Of a stretch of DNA of 5,219 nt, positions 1 to 5,219 are shown in pieces. How positions within the stretch are numbered: position 1 is the stretch's first letter; the number at the start of each line of letters is the position of its first letter. The notes under the pieces were generated by a model that was not told the origin of the DNA, searched no databases, and saw nothing but the letters and a program-made list of their open reading frames with translations. The position numbers and the translations under genes were made by a program. The stretch lies in the IMG/VR virus record IMGVR_UViG_3300029006_000029; one strand, 5' to 3'. This DNA is from a virus (Duplodnaviria; Heunggongvirae; Uroviricota; Caudoviricetes).

Positions 1-178
1 GGTTTTTTTATGCGTAATGCACAGCCACATTCAGATTATGGTGGGGCGTGCAGGGCAGCCGAAAGGCTGGCCGGTTTCGGTAGTCACCGGTATTTCCACC
101 CCTGTACGTCTCACCACCCTTATGGTCGTGGAAAGCCTTGGTGGTGAGTTATTTAAACTGACTATCGAGGCTGCCATC

Positions 179-488: not shown

Positions 489-737
489 ATGGAGAAAGAA
501 CTGCGCCAGAATAACGCCCCGTCTCCCGACAAAATGATTCACGGGGACGGACGTACCCTGGTTATCCGTCTCGACAAACACGGCAATATCAAATTCACTG
601 AAACCGTTCCGGACGGCGCAATGGTCTGCACCCTGGATACCTTCCAGTTTTATCTGGAGAAACAAGGCTGGACTCTTGTAAACCGGAGCGCAATTAAAAA
701 TATGACTGTGGAGCAATTACTAAAAATTCATTGTTGA
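489..737 (+). CDS. rha: Rha-family phage regulatory protein, C-terminal part (downstream fragment of the frameshifted gene)
   Basis: Track ORF 489..737 (82 aa). Its frame is open upstream to 426 and reads ...AYIAEFDRMEKELRQ... from 465, exactly continuing the Rha motif that breaks off in the 179..478 frame after FKE (455-463). One extra base around 464 separates the two frames. Stop TGA at 735-737. Confidence 0.55.
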   Translation: MEKELRQNNAPSPDKMIHGDGRTLVIRLDKHGNIKFTETVPDGAMVCTLDTFQFYLEKQGWTLVNRSAIKNMTVEQLLKIHC

Positions 738-747
738 GGACGCGATA

Positions 748-936
748 ATGGAAACGTTATTACCAAACGTTAATACGTCTGAAGGTTGTTTTGATATTGG
801 TGTTCTGCTCAGTAACCGGGAGTTTACTGAAGATGCCATTAAGATGAGAAAATATGAACCTTATCTTCTCAATGATAATTCCATACTTTCCAGAATTGCC
901 CTTCTTGAACTTGGTATTATCGGAGAACAGCAGTGA
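748..936 (+). CDS. hypothetical small protein (62 aa)
   Basis: ATG at 748 preceded by GAGGA (736-740) at about 7 nt spacing; starts 10 nt after the Rha stop, co-oriented with the operon. Sequence is visibly AT-rich. No family recognised. Confidence 0.45.
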   Translation: METLLPNVNTSEGCFDIGVLLSNREFTEDAIKMRKYEPYLLNDNSILSRIALLELGIIGEQQ

Positions 937-1121
937 CCTCAGCATTTGCACTGGTGATGACCGTTTTTCTTATAACGGGTGAGCCGCAGAATGTGATTAC
1001 CGGAATTTATGACAGTAAGTCATCCTGCATTCAGGTAAGGGACGAACAAAAAATCCCCGGTGAATGCCTCCCGTTAAAAAAAGTATCGCTGTACCTGAAT
1101 AACGAAATACCGGCTGGATAA
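933..1121 (+). CDS. hypothetical small protein with hydrophobic N-terminus (possible signal peptide or membrane anchor), 62 aa
   Basis: GTG start at 933 overlaps the upstream stop (GTGA, 933-936), a classic translational-coupling arrangement; GGAG at 922-925. N-terminus MTSAFALVMTVFLITG is hydrophobic; two Cys in the tail (SSCIQV...PGEC). An alternative start is the in-frame ATG at 957. No family recognised. Confidence 0.4.
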   Translation: MTSAFALVMTVFLITGEPQNVITGIYDSKSSCIQVRDEQKIPGECLPLKKVSLYLNNEIPAG

Positions 1122-1213
1122 CCCACCAGCCATATTAACGCCATACCAACGGATTAAAAATGCCAGCAATGGCAGGGATTCGTACAACCTTAAAATAGTA
1201 ATGAGGTTTATCA

Positions 1214-3757
1214 ATGAGCACTGATAAAGAAACTTTTGCACTATATTGCGAAGCAAAAAATGACAAGGTCAGAAAACGCCTTGGGATTAAAGGTGGTTTT
1301 TACTGGACTACAGCAAAAAAATTATCTGTTGCCATCTCCCGCTGCATTACCGCAATGGATGATAATGATTATGACGAGGACGACTTTAAAAAACCTGTTC
1401 GCGTCCATTTACCCGTTGTGAATGACCTTCCTCCAGAAGGCGTGTTTGATACTGAATTCTGCAACCGTTACGAAAAAGGCGGGGAAGATGGTATCACAAT
1501 GATATTTATAGCTCCTTCCCCTTCAGCTCAGGACAAACCTGCCAGCACTGACAATACCAGCAGCGAAGCTGTTACAGGTGTCAGCCGTGACTGCGATGAA
1601 CAAAGTGACTCTCAGACAGAGAACGCAGATAAAAGCGAATCCCCGGACAGCAACGATGACTGCCCTGAATGTGAAATCCCCGTCTCCACCCTGAGTCTTA
1701 CCCATCGCTTCCTGCACCTCTACTTCTTTGGTCAGGAGTTCGACGAGAAATACAAACATCACGCCACACCAGAACAACGCAAGGACGTGATCCGCATCGA
1801 AATGGATATGGAAGATGGAAACATACAGAGCCTGCTTACTGCAGTACGTTCGCATCCTGAGCTGGATAAGCTGACAAACCATCATCTTGGAAGACTGGCG
1901 CATTCGGTGGAAAAGGCATTCACTCACGCAACAACACGCCGTATCAGCCCGGCAGAATTCGACAAGTTCATTTCCACCTGGATGAAGACTGACTACCTTG
2001 ATCAGGGGCTGTTGACAAAAGAGTGGGCAAAGGGAAATTGCGTATCTGAAATCAATCGCACCCCGTCCGGCGCTAATGCTGGCGGAGGAATTCTTACCGA
2101 TCGCGGTGAAGGTTTTGTCCACGATGATGCGTCAGTGGAACGTGACGTTGCCGCTGGCGTTCTGGCCCGTTCAATGGACATCGATATTTACAATCCACAT
2201 CCGGCACACGCCAAACGCATTGAAGAAATCGTTTCAGAGAATAAGCCGCCCTTTTCTGTTTTTCGTGACAAATTCATCGCCATGCCTGGTCACCTGGATT
2301 ATTCCCGCGCGATAGTAGTTGCGTCCGTGAAAGAAGCACCAATTGGTATCGAGGCTACTCCCCACCGTGTTACCGAATATCTGAACAAAGTACTGACCGA
2401 AACCGATCATGCCAACCCTGATCCGGAAATCGTGGATATTGCCTGCGGTCGCTCCTCTGCCCCTATCCCGCAGCGTGTAACAAAAGAAGGAAAACAGGAT
2501 GATGAAGAAAAACCGCAGCCATCTGGCGCAATGGCAGATGAACAGGCAACGACTGAAGCAGTGGAACCGGATACAACTGAACATAATCAGGACACGCAGT
2601 CGATGGATGCTCAGCCACAGATAAATTCTGTTGATGCGAAATATCAGAAACTGCGTGCAGAACTCTATGAAGCCAGGAAAAACATTCCACCCAAAAATCC
2701 TGTCGATGCAGATAAATTACTGGCTGCTTCTCACGGAGAATTTGTTGAAGGGATTAGCGACCCGAATGATCCAAAATGGGTGAAGGGGATTGAAACCCGC
2801 GATTCGGTGAACCATAACCAGCAAGAAACGGAACAGAAAGGCCATAAAGCGGAACAACACAGTCCAAATGCGCAACAAAACGAGCCAGAAACGAAACAGC
2901 CTGAACCAGTAGCGCAACAGGAACCGGAAAAAGTCTGCACAGCCTGCGGTCAGATCGGCGGCGGCAACTGTCCTGACTGTGGCGCGGTGATGGGCGACGC
3001 AACATACCATGAGACATTCAACGAAGAAAGCCAGGATGAAGCCCGGGAAAAAGATCCGGAGGAAATGGAAAGTGCCGGACTCCCGAACAAGGAGTGCACC
3101 GAAGGCGATCAACATGCCAATGGCAATAATGAAACAGGCGAGACAGCAAATCTCTTAATTAAGGTGAACGGTCATCGTGAAATCACATCCACCAGCAGGT
3201 TGTGGCACCATCTGATGATTGACCTTGAAACAATGGGCAAAAATCCTGACGCACCAATAGCCTCAATAGGCGCTGTATTTTTCGATCCACAAACCGGAGA
3301 TATGGGACCGGAATTTAGTAAGACTATCGATCTGGAAACTGCTGGCGGAGTCATTGATCGGGACACCATTAAATGGTGGCTTAAGCAATCACGCGAAGCG
3401 CAATCTGCCATTATGACCGATGAAATCCCGTTAGATGATGCACTGTTACAATTGCGGGAATTTATCGACGAAAACTCCGGTGAATTTTATGTTCAGGTCT
3501 GGGGAAATGGAGCCAACTTCGACAACACGATTTTGCGCCGTTCATACGAACGGCAGGGGATCCCCTGCCCGTGGCGTTACTACAACGATCGCGATGTACG
3601 CACAATCGTTGAGCTGGGGAAAGCCATAGACTTCGATGCCAGAACGGCTATTCCATTCGAAGGTGAGCGCCATAATGCACTTGATGACGCCCGTTACCAG
3701 GCAAAATACGTTTCAGTTATCTGGCAAAAACTGATCCCGAGTCAGGCTGATTCTTAA
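1214..3757 (+). CDS. large phage exonuclease, RecE-like (exodeoxyribonuclease VIII-like) N-terminal and central region with a C-terminal DEDDh (DnaQ/RNase T-like) 3'-5' exonuclease domain
   Basis: 847-aa ORF; ATG 1214 with GAGG at 1203-1206. Segments such as [21 protein letters not shown]...SGANAGGG...[50 protein letters not shown] and [13 protein letters not shown] match my unverified recollection of the N-terminal region of Rac RecE. The C-terminal ~190 aa carry DEDDh motifs: MIDLETMG (D at 3221-3223, E at 3227-3229), [12 protein letters not shown] (D at 3521-3523), HNALDDARY (H at 3671-3673, D at 3686-3688). Stop TAA 3755-3757. Confidence 0.9.
3182..3754 (+). other. DEDDh-type 3'-5' exonuclease domain (C-terminal domain of the 1214..3757 ORF)
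   Basis: Exo I D-x-E (DLE in LMIDLETMG), Exo II ([13 protein letters not shown]) and Exo III H-x4-D (HNALDD) occur in canonical order and spacing within about 190 residues. Confidence 0.8.
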
Positions 3758-4115: not shown

Positions 4116-5219
4116 ATGAAATATCCGACAGGCGTGGAAAACCATGGAGGGAAATTACGTATCTGGTTTGTTTATAAAGGCGTAAGAGTCAGGGAAAATC
4201 TGGGGGTTCCTGACACAGCAAAAAACAGGCGCGTNNNNNNNNNNCTACGCGCCTCTGTTTGTTACGCAATAAAAACTGGTGTTTTCGACTATGCAAAACA
4301 GTTTCCCTCCTCACGCAATCTGGAAAAATTTGGTGAGGCCCGACAAGATTTAACCATAAAAGAACTGGCTGAAAAATTTCTGGCACTGAAAGAAACTGAA
4401 GTCGCAAAAACATCACTCAACACATACCGTGCCGTCATCAAAAATATCCTGAGCATAATCGGTGAAAAAAATCTTGCCTCATCGATTAATAAAGAAAAAT
4501 TACTGGAGGTTCGTAAAGAGCTACTGACTGGATACCAGATCCCCAAAAGTAACTATATTGTTACACAACCAGGGAGATCGGCTGTAACTGTAAATAATTA
4601 CATGACAAATCTTAACGCCGTGTTCCAGTTTGGTGTTGATAACGGTTACTTGGCAGATAACCCGTTTAAGGGGATCTCGCCATTAAAGGAATCAAGAACC
4701 ATTCCGGATCCTCTTTCGCGGGAGGAATTCATCCGTCTTATCGATGCGTGCAGAAATCAGCAAGCCAAAAATTTATGGTGTGTTTCTGTTTATACTGGCG
4801 TTCGCCCTGGTGAGCTGTGTGCACTTGGATGGGAGGACATAGATCTGAAAAATGGAACAATGATGATCAGGAGAAATTTAGCAAAAGACCGTTTCACGGT
4901 ACCAAAAACACAGGCGGGAACCAATCGGGTCATTCATCTTATTAAGCCAGCAATCGACGCTCTCCGGAGTCAGATGACATTAACGAGACTGAGCAAAGAG
5001 CATATCATTGATGTTCACCTCAGAGAGTATGGCAGAACAGAAAAACAAAAATGCACCTTTGTTTTTCAACCTGAAGTGTCAGCGAGAGTAAAAAATTATG
5101 GTGACCATTTTACCGTTGACTCAATAAGGCAGATGTGGGACGCAGCGATAAAACGTGCCGGACTCCGCCATCGAAAATCATATCAGTCGAGACATACTTA
5201 TGCCTGCTGGTCGCTGACA
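4116..5219 (+). CDS. int: phage integrase, tyrosine recombinase family; 3'-partial (runs off the window end), contains a 10-N run
   Basis: Hand-translated from ATG 4116 (purine-rich GAGAGAAG just upstream; another in-frame ATG at 4101). The frame stays open for 368 codons to 5219, reading through the N-run. N-terminus MKYPTGVENHGGKLRIWFVYKGVRVREN resembles Rac-type IntR as I recall it. Box I motif VYTGVRPGELCAL is present (catalytic Arg codon 4803-4805) and box II begins at SRHTYACWSL at the window edge; the catalytic Tyr lies beyond the window. Absent from the ORF track because there is no in-window stop. Confidence 0.9.
   Translation, partial: MKYPTGVENHGGKLRIWFVYKGVRVRENLGVPDTAKNRRXXXXLRASVCYAIKTGVFDYAKQFPSSRNLEKFGEARQDLTIKELAEKFLALKETEVAKTSLNTYRAVIKNILSIIGEKNLASSINKEKLLEVRKELLTGYQIPKSNYIVTQPGRSAVTVNNYMTNLNAVFQFGVDNGYLADNPFKGISPLKESRTIPDPLSREEFIRLIDACRNQQAKNLWCVSVYTGVRPGELCALGWEDIDLKNGTMMIRRNLAKDRFTVPKTQAGTNRVIHLIKPAIDALRSQMTLTRLSKEHIIDVHLREYGRTEKQKCTFVFQPEVSARVKNYGDHFTVDSIRQMWDAAIKRAGLRHRKSYQSRHTYACWSLT
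4235..4244. other. run of 10 ambiguous bases (N) - assembly gap or masked bases inside the integrase gene
   Basis: Literal nnnnnnnnnn in the sequence. The integrase frame is maintained across it (GTN codon plus three NNN codons), so the run's length is compatible with the true sequence. Confidence 0.95.

What the first reader, a model, noticed from the sequence alone, without database searches (positions are those of the whole stretch)
748..1121. AT-rich pair of translationally coupled small ORFs, one with a hydrophobic N-terminus
Two 62-codon ORFs overlap by GTGA (933-936); each has a Shine-Dalgarno-like motif, and the region is visibly more AT-rich than the flanking Rha and exonuclease genes. 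The second product begins with a hydrophobic stretch (AFALVMTVFLITG) followed by a Cys pair, consistent with a small membrane-associated or exported peptide. This position in lambdoid phages often holds kil-like, host-takeover, superinfection-exclusion or anti-defence genes. I recognise no family for either ORF.
Basis: partly seen in the sequence, partly recalled or inferred. Interest (0 to 1): 0.4.

Follow-up and report, generated by a model that had tools for sequence, protein, structure and literature searches.

The report
Known prophage dicB–ydfD gene pair
The two small overlapping genes are a well-known prophage pair, the cell-division inhibitor DicB and a YdfD-family (DUF1482) lysis protein, found in about a thousand complete E. 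coli genomes in this form, so the finding is real but ordinary.

Summary
Two 62-codon ORFs (748-936, 933-1121, + strand) overlap by GTGA, and each has a Shine-Dalgarno motif 7 nt upstream. ORF2 has a hydrophobic N-terminus and two Cys. The region is modestly AT-rich (40.6% GC against 46.5% for the window).

The statement that no family is recognisable is wrong. ORF1 is DicB (Pfam PF05358, E 3.7e-38; NCBIfam NF049927, above its cut-off). ORF2 is a DUF1482/YdfD-family protein (PF07358, E 3.5e-15) and is identical to an NCBI-annotated protein seen on 423 contigs. The pair, its 4-nt overlap and its leader are kept in all nine loci compared, including the K-12 Qin prophage. dN/dS is below 1 (0.06-0.53) in all but one near-identical comparison.

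Published work on the K-12 alleles shows:
- DicB binds MinC and blocks division.
- DicB also blocks phage DNA entry through ManYZ.
- YdfD lyses dividing cells, reportedly by inhibiting IspG, and DicB suppresses that lysis.

The reading of ORF2 as a membrane or exported peptide is neither supported nor excluded.

This allele is 61% (DicB) and 48% (YdfD) identical to K-12, and its DicB C-terminus is acidic instead of basic. Nothing here is new in kind. Interest is low.

The parts
723..747 (+). Conserved dicB leader (aaaattcattgttgaggacgcgata). It contains the Shine-Dalgarno GAGGA at 736-740. The rha stop codon (735-737) lies inside it.
   Evidence: The leader is nearly identical in all 9 loci. 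Homology to K-12 Qin starts at window position 723.
748..936 (+). dicB: a 62-aa cell division inhibition protein DicB. This is the allele class with an acidic C-terminal third.
   Evidence: Pfam PF05358, E 3.7e-38, covering 1-62 of 62 profile positions. NCBIfam NF049927, 111 bits against a cut-off of 100. It is 61% identical to K-12 DicB and 100% identical to the dicB-annotated gene of strain UTAK-6, protein WP_000449172.1. Residues 1-14 are invariant or nearly so across the family. dN/dS is 0.06-0.53.
922..925 (+). Shine-Dalgarno GGAG for ORF2, inside the 3' end of dicB, 7 nt before the GTG start.
   Evidence: Read directly from the sequence. A GGAG or GGA motif sits at the same place in 8 of the 9 loci; L008 has cgggggg there.
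933..936 (+). GTGA overlap: the ORF2 start codon overlaps the dicB stop codon (translational coupling).
   Evidence: A 4-nt overlap is present in all 9 loci: ATGA in K-12 and O157, GTGA here and in the PPompW phages.
933..1121 (+). ydfD-family gene: a 62-aa DUF1482 protein, homologue of the Qin lysis protein YdfD.
   Evidence: Pfam PF07358, E 3.5e-15, 56 bits against a cut-off of 25. It is identical to P0001, 'DUF1482 family protein', seen on 423 contigs. It is 48% identical to K-12 YdfD. The family-invariant residues L7, V8, G16, C32 and C45 are all present. dN/dS is 0.10-0.52, apart from one near-identical pair (L001/L005, 5 differences, ratio 1.21) and one saturated pair.

Best explanation
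The interval holds the dicB-ydfD module of a lambdoid (PPompW/Qin-type) E. coli prophage. The two genes are translated from one early-left transcript. ORF2 initiates at a GTG that overlaps the dicB stop codon, so its translation is coupled to that of dicB (inferred from the anatomy).

By homology with the K-12 Qin proteins, the likely mechanisms are as follows.
- ZipA takes the DicB-MinC complex to the Z ring, where it dismantles FtsZ polymers and stops division.
- Through the same MinC-dependent route, DicB inhibits the ManYZ inner-membrane channel. This blocks DNA entry of lambda-like phages, which is superinfection exclusion.
- The ORF2 product is a YdfD-family small protein. When made without enough DicB it lyses dividing cells, reportedly by binding and inhibiting IspG. 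That starves the septum of undecaprenyl-phosphate-linked wall precursors.
- DicB, made first from the same mRNA, halts division and thereby masks the lysis.

Shown here: family membership, conservation of the pair, the coupling signals, purifying selection, and conservation of the DicB N-terminal determinants.

Inferred only: that this diverged allele (61% and 48% identity to K-12) has the same partners.

The confidence given (0.85) is for the identity of the two genes and the general mode of action. Identity alone is about 0.97. The same mechanism as in K-12 is about 0.7 for DicB and about 0.5 for ORF2.
For: Family membership:
- Searches give profile matches above the curated cut-offs.
- 4283 of 5426 complete E. 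coli genomes have a match, and 1019 cover at least 80% of the query. These are annotated 'dicB' plus 'DUF1482 family protein'.
- K-12 Qin has dicB and 'lysis protein YdfD' in the same overlapping arrangement, followed by an exonuclease gene.

Conservation:
- the leader, the Shine-Dalgarno motif, the 62-codon dicB and the [A/G]TGA overlap are kept in 9 loci.
- dN/dS is below 1 in all but one near-identical comparison.
- DicB residues 1-14, including L5, are conserved. These are the residues Yang et al. found essential for activity and important for MinC binding (PMC4967827).
- the family-invariant residues of ORF2 are present.

Published mechanisms:
- DicB, MinC and ManYZ: PMC6832061.
- YdfD lysis, its suppression by DicB or SulA, and IspG binding with rescue: PMC8835842.
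- Co-transcription of dicB and ydfD: PMC10448788.
Against: - The DicB C-terminal third is diverged with the charge inverted: net charge -5 against +3 in K-12. Yang et al. found that residues beyond the last 8 contribute to activity.
- ORF2 has T2 in place of N2 and lacks the terminal L63. Changes at both positions reduced lysis by K-12 YdfD.
- The invariant Cys pair is not explained by the IspG model, since Cys mutants still bound IspG.
- The IspG mechanism rests on a single study without enzyme kinetics.
- DicF, which precedes dicB in Qin, is not in the window. It is replaced upstream by a C4/rha cassette, so regulation differs.
- No experiment exists for this allele.
Confidence: 0.85

Rival explanations
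1. ORF2 is a membrane-anchored or Sec-exported small peptide. Its periplasmic, disulfide-bonded C-terminal part would act on the envelope or septal wall synthesis directly, not on cytoplasmic IspG.
For: - The N-terminal hydrophobic run AFALVMTVFLI has a Kyte-Doolittle 11-residue score of 2.81 and is followed by G-E-P.
- The K-12 homologue reaches 2.00 over 19 residues, above the usual transmembrane threshold.
- The two Cys are invariant across the whole family, yet they are dispensable for IspG binding. This fits a structural disulfide outside the cytoplasm.
- Lysis depends on active division.
- Four of the five AlphaFold models were of low confidence.
Against: - There is no basic residue before the hydrophobic run.
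- Across the family the conserved hydrophobic run is only about 7 residues, and distant members carry Q, N, S, G or C at positions 11-15.
- The 19-residue hydropathy of this allele is 1.39.
- The best AlphaFold model (pLDDT 78) makes residues 5-12 a beta-strand paired with residues 18-26 in a compact beta-beta-alpha-beta fold.
- Lu et al. report purified YdfD binding IspG in vitro and by FRET in vivo, with rescue by ispG overexpression or HMBPP.
Confidence: 0.2
2. The pair is a decaying remnant in a defective prophage. It is recognisable by homology but no longer functional or expressed. The neighbouring rha carries a frameshift and ORF2 uses a weak GTG start.
For: - rha directly upstream has a 1-nt insertion relative to intact copies.
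- ORF2 starts with GTG, whereas ATG is used in K-12 and O157.
- dicB operons are normally repressed.
Against: - Both ORFs are intact and full length.
- The identical proteins recur on hundreds of contigs.
- dN/dS within this allele class is 0.10-0.27 (window against L003 and L007).
- The Shine-Dalgarno motifs and the overlap are intact.
- The same GTG allele occurs in inducible PPompW/Stx2a phage records.
- The rha frameshift could be a sequencing error.
Confidence: 0.05
3. The ORFs are chance open frames in AT-rich non-coding DNA.
For: ORFs of about 60 codons are common. 56 ORFs of at least 30 aa occur in the window, including a 63-aa antisense ORF at 760-951.
Against: - Profile matches reach E 3.7e-38 and 3.5e-15.
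- The frames are conserved in loci diverged to dS of about 1 or more.
- dN/dS is below 1.
- Relatives at 43-45% identity occur in Klebsiella phages.
Confidence: 0.01

Closest known systems
DicB of the E. coli K-12 Qin (Kim) cryptic prophage (Pfam PF05358, NCBIfam NF049927)
   Same: - Length of 62 aa.
- Residues 1-42 largely identical, including the invariant residues 3-14 and L5.
- The same leader and Shine-Dalgarno motif.
- The same position upstream of, and overlapping, ydfD, followed by a RecE-like exonuclease gene, xis and int.
- An all-helical prediction.
   Different: - Overall identity is 61%.
- The C-terminal 20 residues belong to a second allele class (YLLNDNSILSRIALLELGIIGEQQ against ELLNKICIVSMLARLRLMPKGCAQ), with net charge -5 against +3.
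- It has E2 instead of K2.
- It lacks C45 and C60 of the K-12 protein.
- In the window it is preceded by a C4-RNA/rha cassette instead of directly by DicF.
YdfD lysis protein of Qin (Pfam DUF1482, PF07358; the family also includes YebW)
   Same: - The same size.
- A start codon overlapping the dicB stop.
- The N-terminal S-A-F-x-L-V-x-T-V-F-L motif.
- G16-E-P, C32, EQKIPG, C45-x-P and the C-terminal EIPAG.
   Different: - Identity is 48%.
- The start codon is GTG.
- It has T2 instead of N2 and no terminal L63.
- The C-terminal part is less acidic (net -1 against -4).
- The 19-residue hydropathy is lower (1.39 against 2.00).
Lambda Kil and other prophage division inhibitors in the pL operon (functional analogues)
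   Same: A small protein encoded in the early-left operon between the immunity region and the exo/xis/int genes. It blocks FtsZ-ring function with involvement of ZipA, as described in PMC4967827.
   Different: There is no sequence relationship. The Pfam scan of ORF1 returns only DicB. DicB acts through MinC, whereas Kil acts on FtsZ and ZipA directly.
Single-gene lysis proteins (phiX174 E, Qbeta A2, phage M Lys)
   Same: A small protein that causes lysis of growing cells by blocking the supply of wall precursors rather than by degrading the wall. This comparison is drawn in PMC8835842.
   Different: There is no homology. The reported target (IspG, in the MEP pathway) is different. The gene sits in the early region of a tailed temperate phage that has its own holin/endolysin genes elsewhere, so it is not the phage's main lysis device.

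Membership tests
DicB (PF05358 / NF049927) | Full-length match to the family profile above the curated cut-off | tested here: met
   PF05358 gives 129.5 bits against a cut-off of 27, covering 1-62 of 62 positions. NF049927 gives 111 bits against a cut-off of 100.
DicB (PF05358 / NF049927) | Conserved N-terminal segment (residues 1-14, including L5), shown to be essential for activity and important for MinC binding | tested here: met
   M1, L4, L5, P6, N7, N9, T10, S11 and G13 are invariant; E2, T3, V8, E12 and C14 are nearly invariant. All are present in the window protein. The requirement comes from PMC4967827.
DicB (PF05358 / NF049927) | Genomic context: early-left operon of a lambdoid prophage, directly followed by an overlapping ydfD and then an exonuclease gene | tested here: met
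DicB (PF05358 / NF049927) | Binds MinC; ZipA-dependent division block; MinC-dependent inhibition of ManYZ | not testable with these tools
   This needs in vivo expression or binding assays. No structure of a relative is solved.
dicBF operon (Qin-type) | DicF sRNA gene upstream of dicB | tested here: inconclusive
   There is no DicF in the window. DicF precedes dicB in L001, L003 and L005-L007. In L004, which has the window's architecture, DicF lies upstream of the IsrK/C4/rha cassette, which would be beyond the window's left end.
YdfD / DUF1482 (PF07358) | Match to the family profile above the gathering score | tested here: met
   56.1 bits against a cut-off of 25, covering 1-57 of 57 profile positions. 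phrog_1092 matches at E 8.4e-33.
YdfD / DUF1482 (PF07358) | Family-invariant residues: the L-V of the N-terminal hydrophobic motif, G16, and the Cys pair 13 residues apart | tested here: met
   L7, V8, G16, C32 and C45 are invariant in a 13-member alignment reaching 34% identity, and all are present here.
YdfD / DUF1482 (PF07358) | Terminal residues reported as needed for full lysis by K-12 YdfD (N2, L63) | tested here: not met
   The window protein has T2 and ends at G62. The requirement comes from PMC8835842. This bears on equivalent function, not on family membership.
YdfD / DUF1482 (PF07358) | Lysis of dividing cells on expression; suppression by DicB or SulA; IspG binding | not testable with these tools
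   Experimental only (PMC8835842).
Holin / single-pass membrane peptide or Sec signal peptide (for ORF2) | A hydrophobic segment long enough to span the membrane (about 18 or more residues), or a basic n-region plus h-region plus a small-x-small cleavage site | tested here: inconclusive
   The uncharged run is 14 residues (S3-G16). The 19-residue Kyte-Doolittle score is 1.39, below 1.6. There is no K or R before it. The conserved hydrophobic core is only about 7 residues across the family. The best AlphaFold model shows a beta-strand, but only 1 of 5 models is confident. No dedicated signal-peptide or transmembrane predictor was available.
Known anti-phage defence systems (PADLOC) | Match to any defence-system protein model | tested here: not met
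   There are no hits at E up to 0.1 for either protein.

The most novel reading that the evidence does not exclude
The allele class seen here may have diverged in partner specificity from the K-12 proteins. It comprises a DicB with an acidic, charge-inverted C-terminal helix and a YdfD-family protein with T2, no L63 and a GTG start. One possibility is a different septal or inner-membrane target for the DicB C-terminus. Another is that the family-invariant Cys pair of ORF2 marks a mechanism other than simple IspG binding, such as a periplasmic disulfide-bonded effector or ligation of a metal or Fe-S site. The DicB and ORF2 alleles may also be matched to each other as a toxin/antidote-like pair.
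Probability: 0.12. Interest if true: 0.4.

Novelty: already known. Interest (0 to 1): 0.1.

Why it matters
It matters little as a discovery. The interval is a correctly annotated copy of a gene pair studied since the 1980s (dicB) and since 2016 (ydfD).

Its modest value is practical. It documents that E. coli prophages carry at least two allele classes of DicB C-termini and of YdfD, with recombinants between them. Only the K-12 alleles have been tested. The invariant Cys pair and the cellular location of YdfD-family proteins are still unexplained. Anyone testing the IspG model, or DicB-mediated phage exclusion in pathogenic E. coli, should include this widespread allele.

Tried and rejected
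- Rfam scan of the window for DicF: none found. Only a C4 antisense RNA at 34-121 passed; the other two hits were far below their gathering scores.
- PDB sequence search for both proteins: nothing meaningful.
- Foldseek of both AlphaFold models against the PDB: no hit at E up to 0.001.
- The afdb50 fold library was not available.
- PADLOC: no defence-system match.
- PHROGs: both proteins fall in families labelled 'unknown function', phrog_1251 and phrog_1092.
- Masuda et al. 2016 (PMC5975272), the original ydfD paper, is not held. Its results are cited only as reported by PMC8835842.
- A full-text search for 'DUF1482' found no paper.
- A promoter scan found no promoter-like site upstream of dicB within the window, and only one site overall against 2.3 expected. 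Expression is therefore assumed to come from further upstream.
- The antisense 63-aa ORF at 760-951 was considered and rejected as a chance ORF, because the substitution pattern fits the + strand frames.
- A toxin-antitoxin reading was considered. DicB masks YdfD lysis indirectly by stopping division, and SulA does the same, so it is not a dedicated antitoxin.

Full report
**Observation.** The window has two 62-codon ORFs on the + strand, 748-936 (ATG) and 933-1121 (GTG). The GTG start of the second overlaps the TGA stop of the first, as GTGA at 933-936.
- GAGGA at 736-740 lies 7 nt before the first start. GGAG at 922-925 lies 7 nt before the second.
- The second product begins MTSAFALVMTVFLITG and has exactly two cysteines, C32 and C45.
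- GC content is 37.0% for ORF1 and 44.4% for ORF2, giving 40.6% for the pair. rha upstream is 47.4%, the exonuclease gene downstream 48.7% and the whole window 46.5%.
- 7.9% of equal-sized windows are as AT-rich, so the compositional dip is real but modest. It is due mostly to ORF1.

**Identity.** ORF1 is DicB.
- It matches Pfam PF05358 over the whole 62-position profile (E 3.7e-38). It passes the NCBIfam cut-off for 'cell division inhibition protein DicB' (111 bits against 100).

ORF2 is a DUF1482 protein, the family of the Qin lysis protein YdfD.
- It matches PF07358 at E 3.5e-15 (56 bits against a cut-off of 25).
- Its exact sequence is a RefSeq-annotated 'DUF1482 family protein' seen on 423 contigs.

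At the DNA level:
- 4283 of 5426 complete E. coli genomes match part of the interval, and 1019 match at least 80% of it. These are annotated dicB plus DUF1482.
- PPompW prophages and Stx2a-converting phage records carry it at 97.5% identity.

In K-12 the Qin prophage has dicB and 'lysis protein YdfD' in the same overlapping arrangement, followed by an exonuclease pseudogene. The window proteins are 61% (DicB) and 48% (YdfD) identical to the K-12 ones.

**Coding signal and conservation.** I compared nine loci: the window, K-12, O157:H7, other E. coli strains and several phages.
- The leader aaaattcattgttgaggacgcgataATG, the 62-codon dicB, the 4-nt [A/G]TGA overlap and a 62-67-codon downstream ORF are always present.
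- Pairwise Nei-Gojobori dN/dS is 0.06-0.53 for dicB. For the ydfD-family gene it is 0.10-0.52, apart from one near-identical pair with only 5 differences and one saturated pair. Synonymous divergence reaches 1 or more.
Neither is met.

An exhaustive profile search finds only 53 cluster representatives of the DUF1482 family among 1.84 billion proteins. Relatives occur in Klebsiella and Citrobacter temperate phages at 31-45% identity. In one Klebsiella phage the gene overlaps small ORFs that are not DicB. The family is therefore not obligately paired with DicB.

**Mechanism, from the literature on the K-12 alleles.**
- DicB binds MinC. The complex needs ZipA to reach the Z ring and blocks division (PMC4967827; PMC6832061).
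[quoted passage not shown] It inhibits mannose transport as well. Both effects require the MinC interaction.
- The N-terminus of DicB is essential. L5 cannot be mutated, and residues 1-14 matter for MinC binding. The last eight residues are dispensable.
- YdfD lyses cells within hours of induction.
- Co-expression of dicB or sulA prevents that lysis.
- YdfD binds IspG.
- ispG overexpression or HMBPP rescues the cells (PMC8835842).
- dicB and ydfD are co-transcribed (PMC10448788).

**How the window allele compares.** In the window DicB, residues 1-14 including L5 are the family consensus. That supports the same MinC-directed action.
- The C-terminal third belongs to a second allele class. The hydrophobic positions are kept (LLN..I.S..A.L.L) but the charge is inverted: net -5 against +3 for the whole protein.
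- Recombinants between the two classes exist, for example P0169.

The window ORF2 keeps every family-invariant residue: L7, V8, G16, C32 and C45. It has T2 instead of N2 and lacks L63. Changes at both positions weakened lysis by K-12 YdfD. Equivalence of function is therefore probable for DicB and less certain for ORF2.

**Is ORF2 a membrane or exported peptide?**

Evidence for:
- The hydrophobic N-terminus.
- The invariant Cys pair, which Lu et al. found dispensable for IspG binding. The IspG model therefore does not explain it.

Evidence against:
- There is no basic n-region.
- The uncharged run is only 14 residues, and the 19-residue hydropathy is 1.39.
- Only about 7 hydrophobic residues are conserved across the family, with polar or Cys residues at positions 11-15 in distant members.
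- The best AlphaFold model (pLDDT 78) makes residues 5-12 a beta-strand in a small beta-beta-alpha-beta fold. The other four models scored about 50, so this is tentative.

I leave this as a minority rival.

**Structure searches.** DicB is predicted to be all-helical (pLDDT 73). Neither model nor sequence resembles any solved structure.

**Context.** Upstream, the window does not carry DicF.
- Instead it has a C4-type antisense RNA at 34-121 (79 bits against a gathering score of 45) and a Rha-family antirepressor-like gene.
- In L004, which has the same architecture, the order is DicF, a 28-codon dicB fragment, IsrK, C4, rha, dicB, DUF1482, exonuclease.
- The cassette, homologous to the Gifsy-1 isrK-orf45-anrP locus (PMC4825925), therefore sits between DicF and dicB. 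This arrangement occurs in 35 complete genomes.

**Verdict.** The finding is real and correctly described. It is an already known, well-annotated gene pair. The claim of no recognisable family is wrong. Interest is low.

Noticed in passing
window 34-121 (+), target 159-173: There is a C4-type antisense RNA (Rfam RF01695, 79.3 bits against a gathering score of 45). Its second loop region (72-86) is complementary, with G-U pairs allowed, over 15 nt to 159-173. That stretch covers the Shine-Dalgarno motif of rha, whose ATG is at 179. This resembles P1 c4 control of icd-ant.
   Followed up: partly
window 10-147 (+); L004 1735-1923: A 45-aa ORF overlaps the C4-like RNA. In L004 an IsrK sRNA sits immediately upstream. 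Together with rha this looks like the Gifsy-1 isrK-orf45-anrP locus (PMC4825925), here placed just before dicB. The window starts just after IsrK.
   Followed up: partly
window 464 (rha, 179-737): The Rha-family gene is split into two ORFs (17-478 and 489-737) by one extra T at position 464, relative to the intact gene in strain STEC435 (L008). This is either a pseudogene or a sequencing error.
   Followed up: yes
L004 1570-1653: RefSeq annotates a 28-codon dicB fragment between DicF and the IsrK/C4/rha cassette. This suggests the cassette inserted at, and duplicated, the 5' end of dicB.
   Followed up: no
window 1161-1174: The hairpin TGCCA-GCAA-TGGCA has a GNRA-type loop. It lies within a block (1158-1180) that is nearly invariant in six loci whose flanks have diverged (one substitution in the hairpin in L006), between the ydfD-family gene and the exonuclease gene. 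The 1100-1213 RNA folds with a z-score of -3.5. Its function is unknown.
   Followed up: partly
window 1112-1131: The inverted repeat GGCTGG-N8-CCAGCC spans the ORF2 stop codon. It is present in loci of this allele class but not in the K-12 class. On the minus strand it scores as terminator-like.
   Followed up: no
window 1214-3757: The 847-aa 'exonuclease' combines the N-terminal roughly 600 residues of RecE/ExoVIII (NF007259 positions 1-602 of 877, below its cut-off) with a C-terminal Rv2179c-like 3'-5' exonuclease domain (PF16473, E 1.4e-67). That domain takes the place of the RecE nuclease domain.
   Followed up: no
window 4235-4244: A run of 10 N lies inside the integrase ORF, which starts near 4117 and runs off the window end. 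It is an assembly gap or masking.
   Followed up: no
window 748-936 against L001 3026-3214; P0169: DicB proteins fall into two C-terminal allele classes with opposite charge, net -5 here and +3 in K-12. Recombinants occur, such as P0169, which has a window-type N-terminal part and a K-12-type C-terminus.
   Followed up: partly
L009 2254-2692 (Klebsiella phage ST16-OXA48phi5.1): A DUF1482 gene sits in the same place, between cI and exoVIII. It overlaps two small upstream ORFs (46 and 37 aa) that do not match DicB. These might be unrelated analogues of a division inhibitor.
   Followed up: partly
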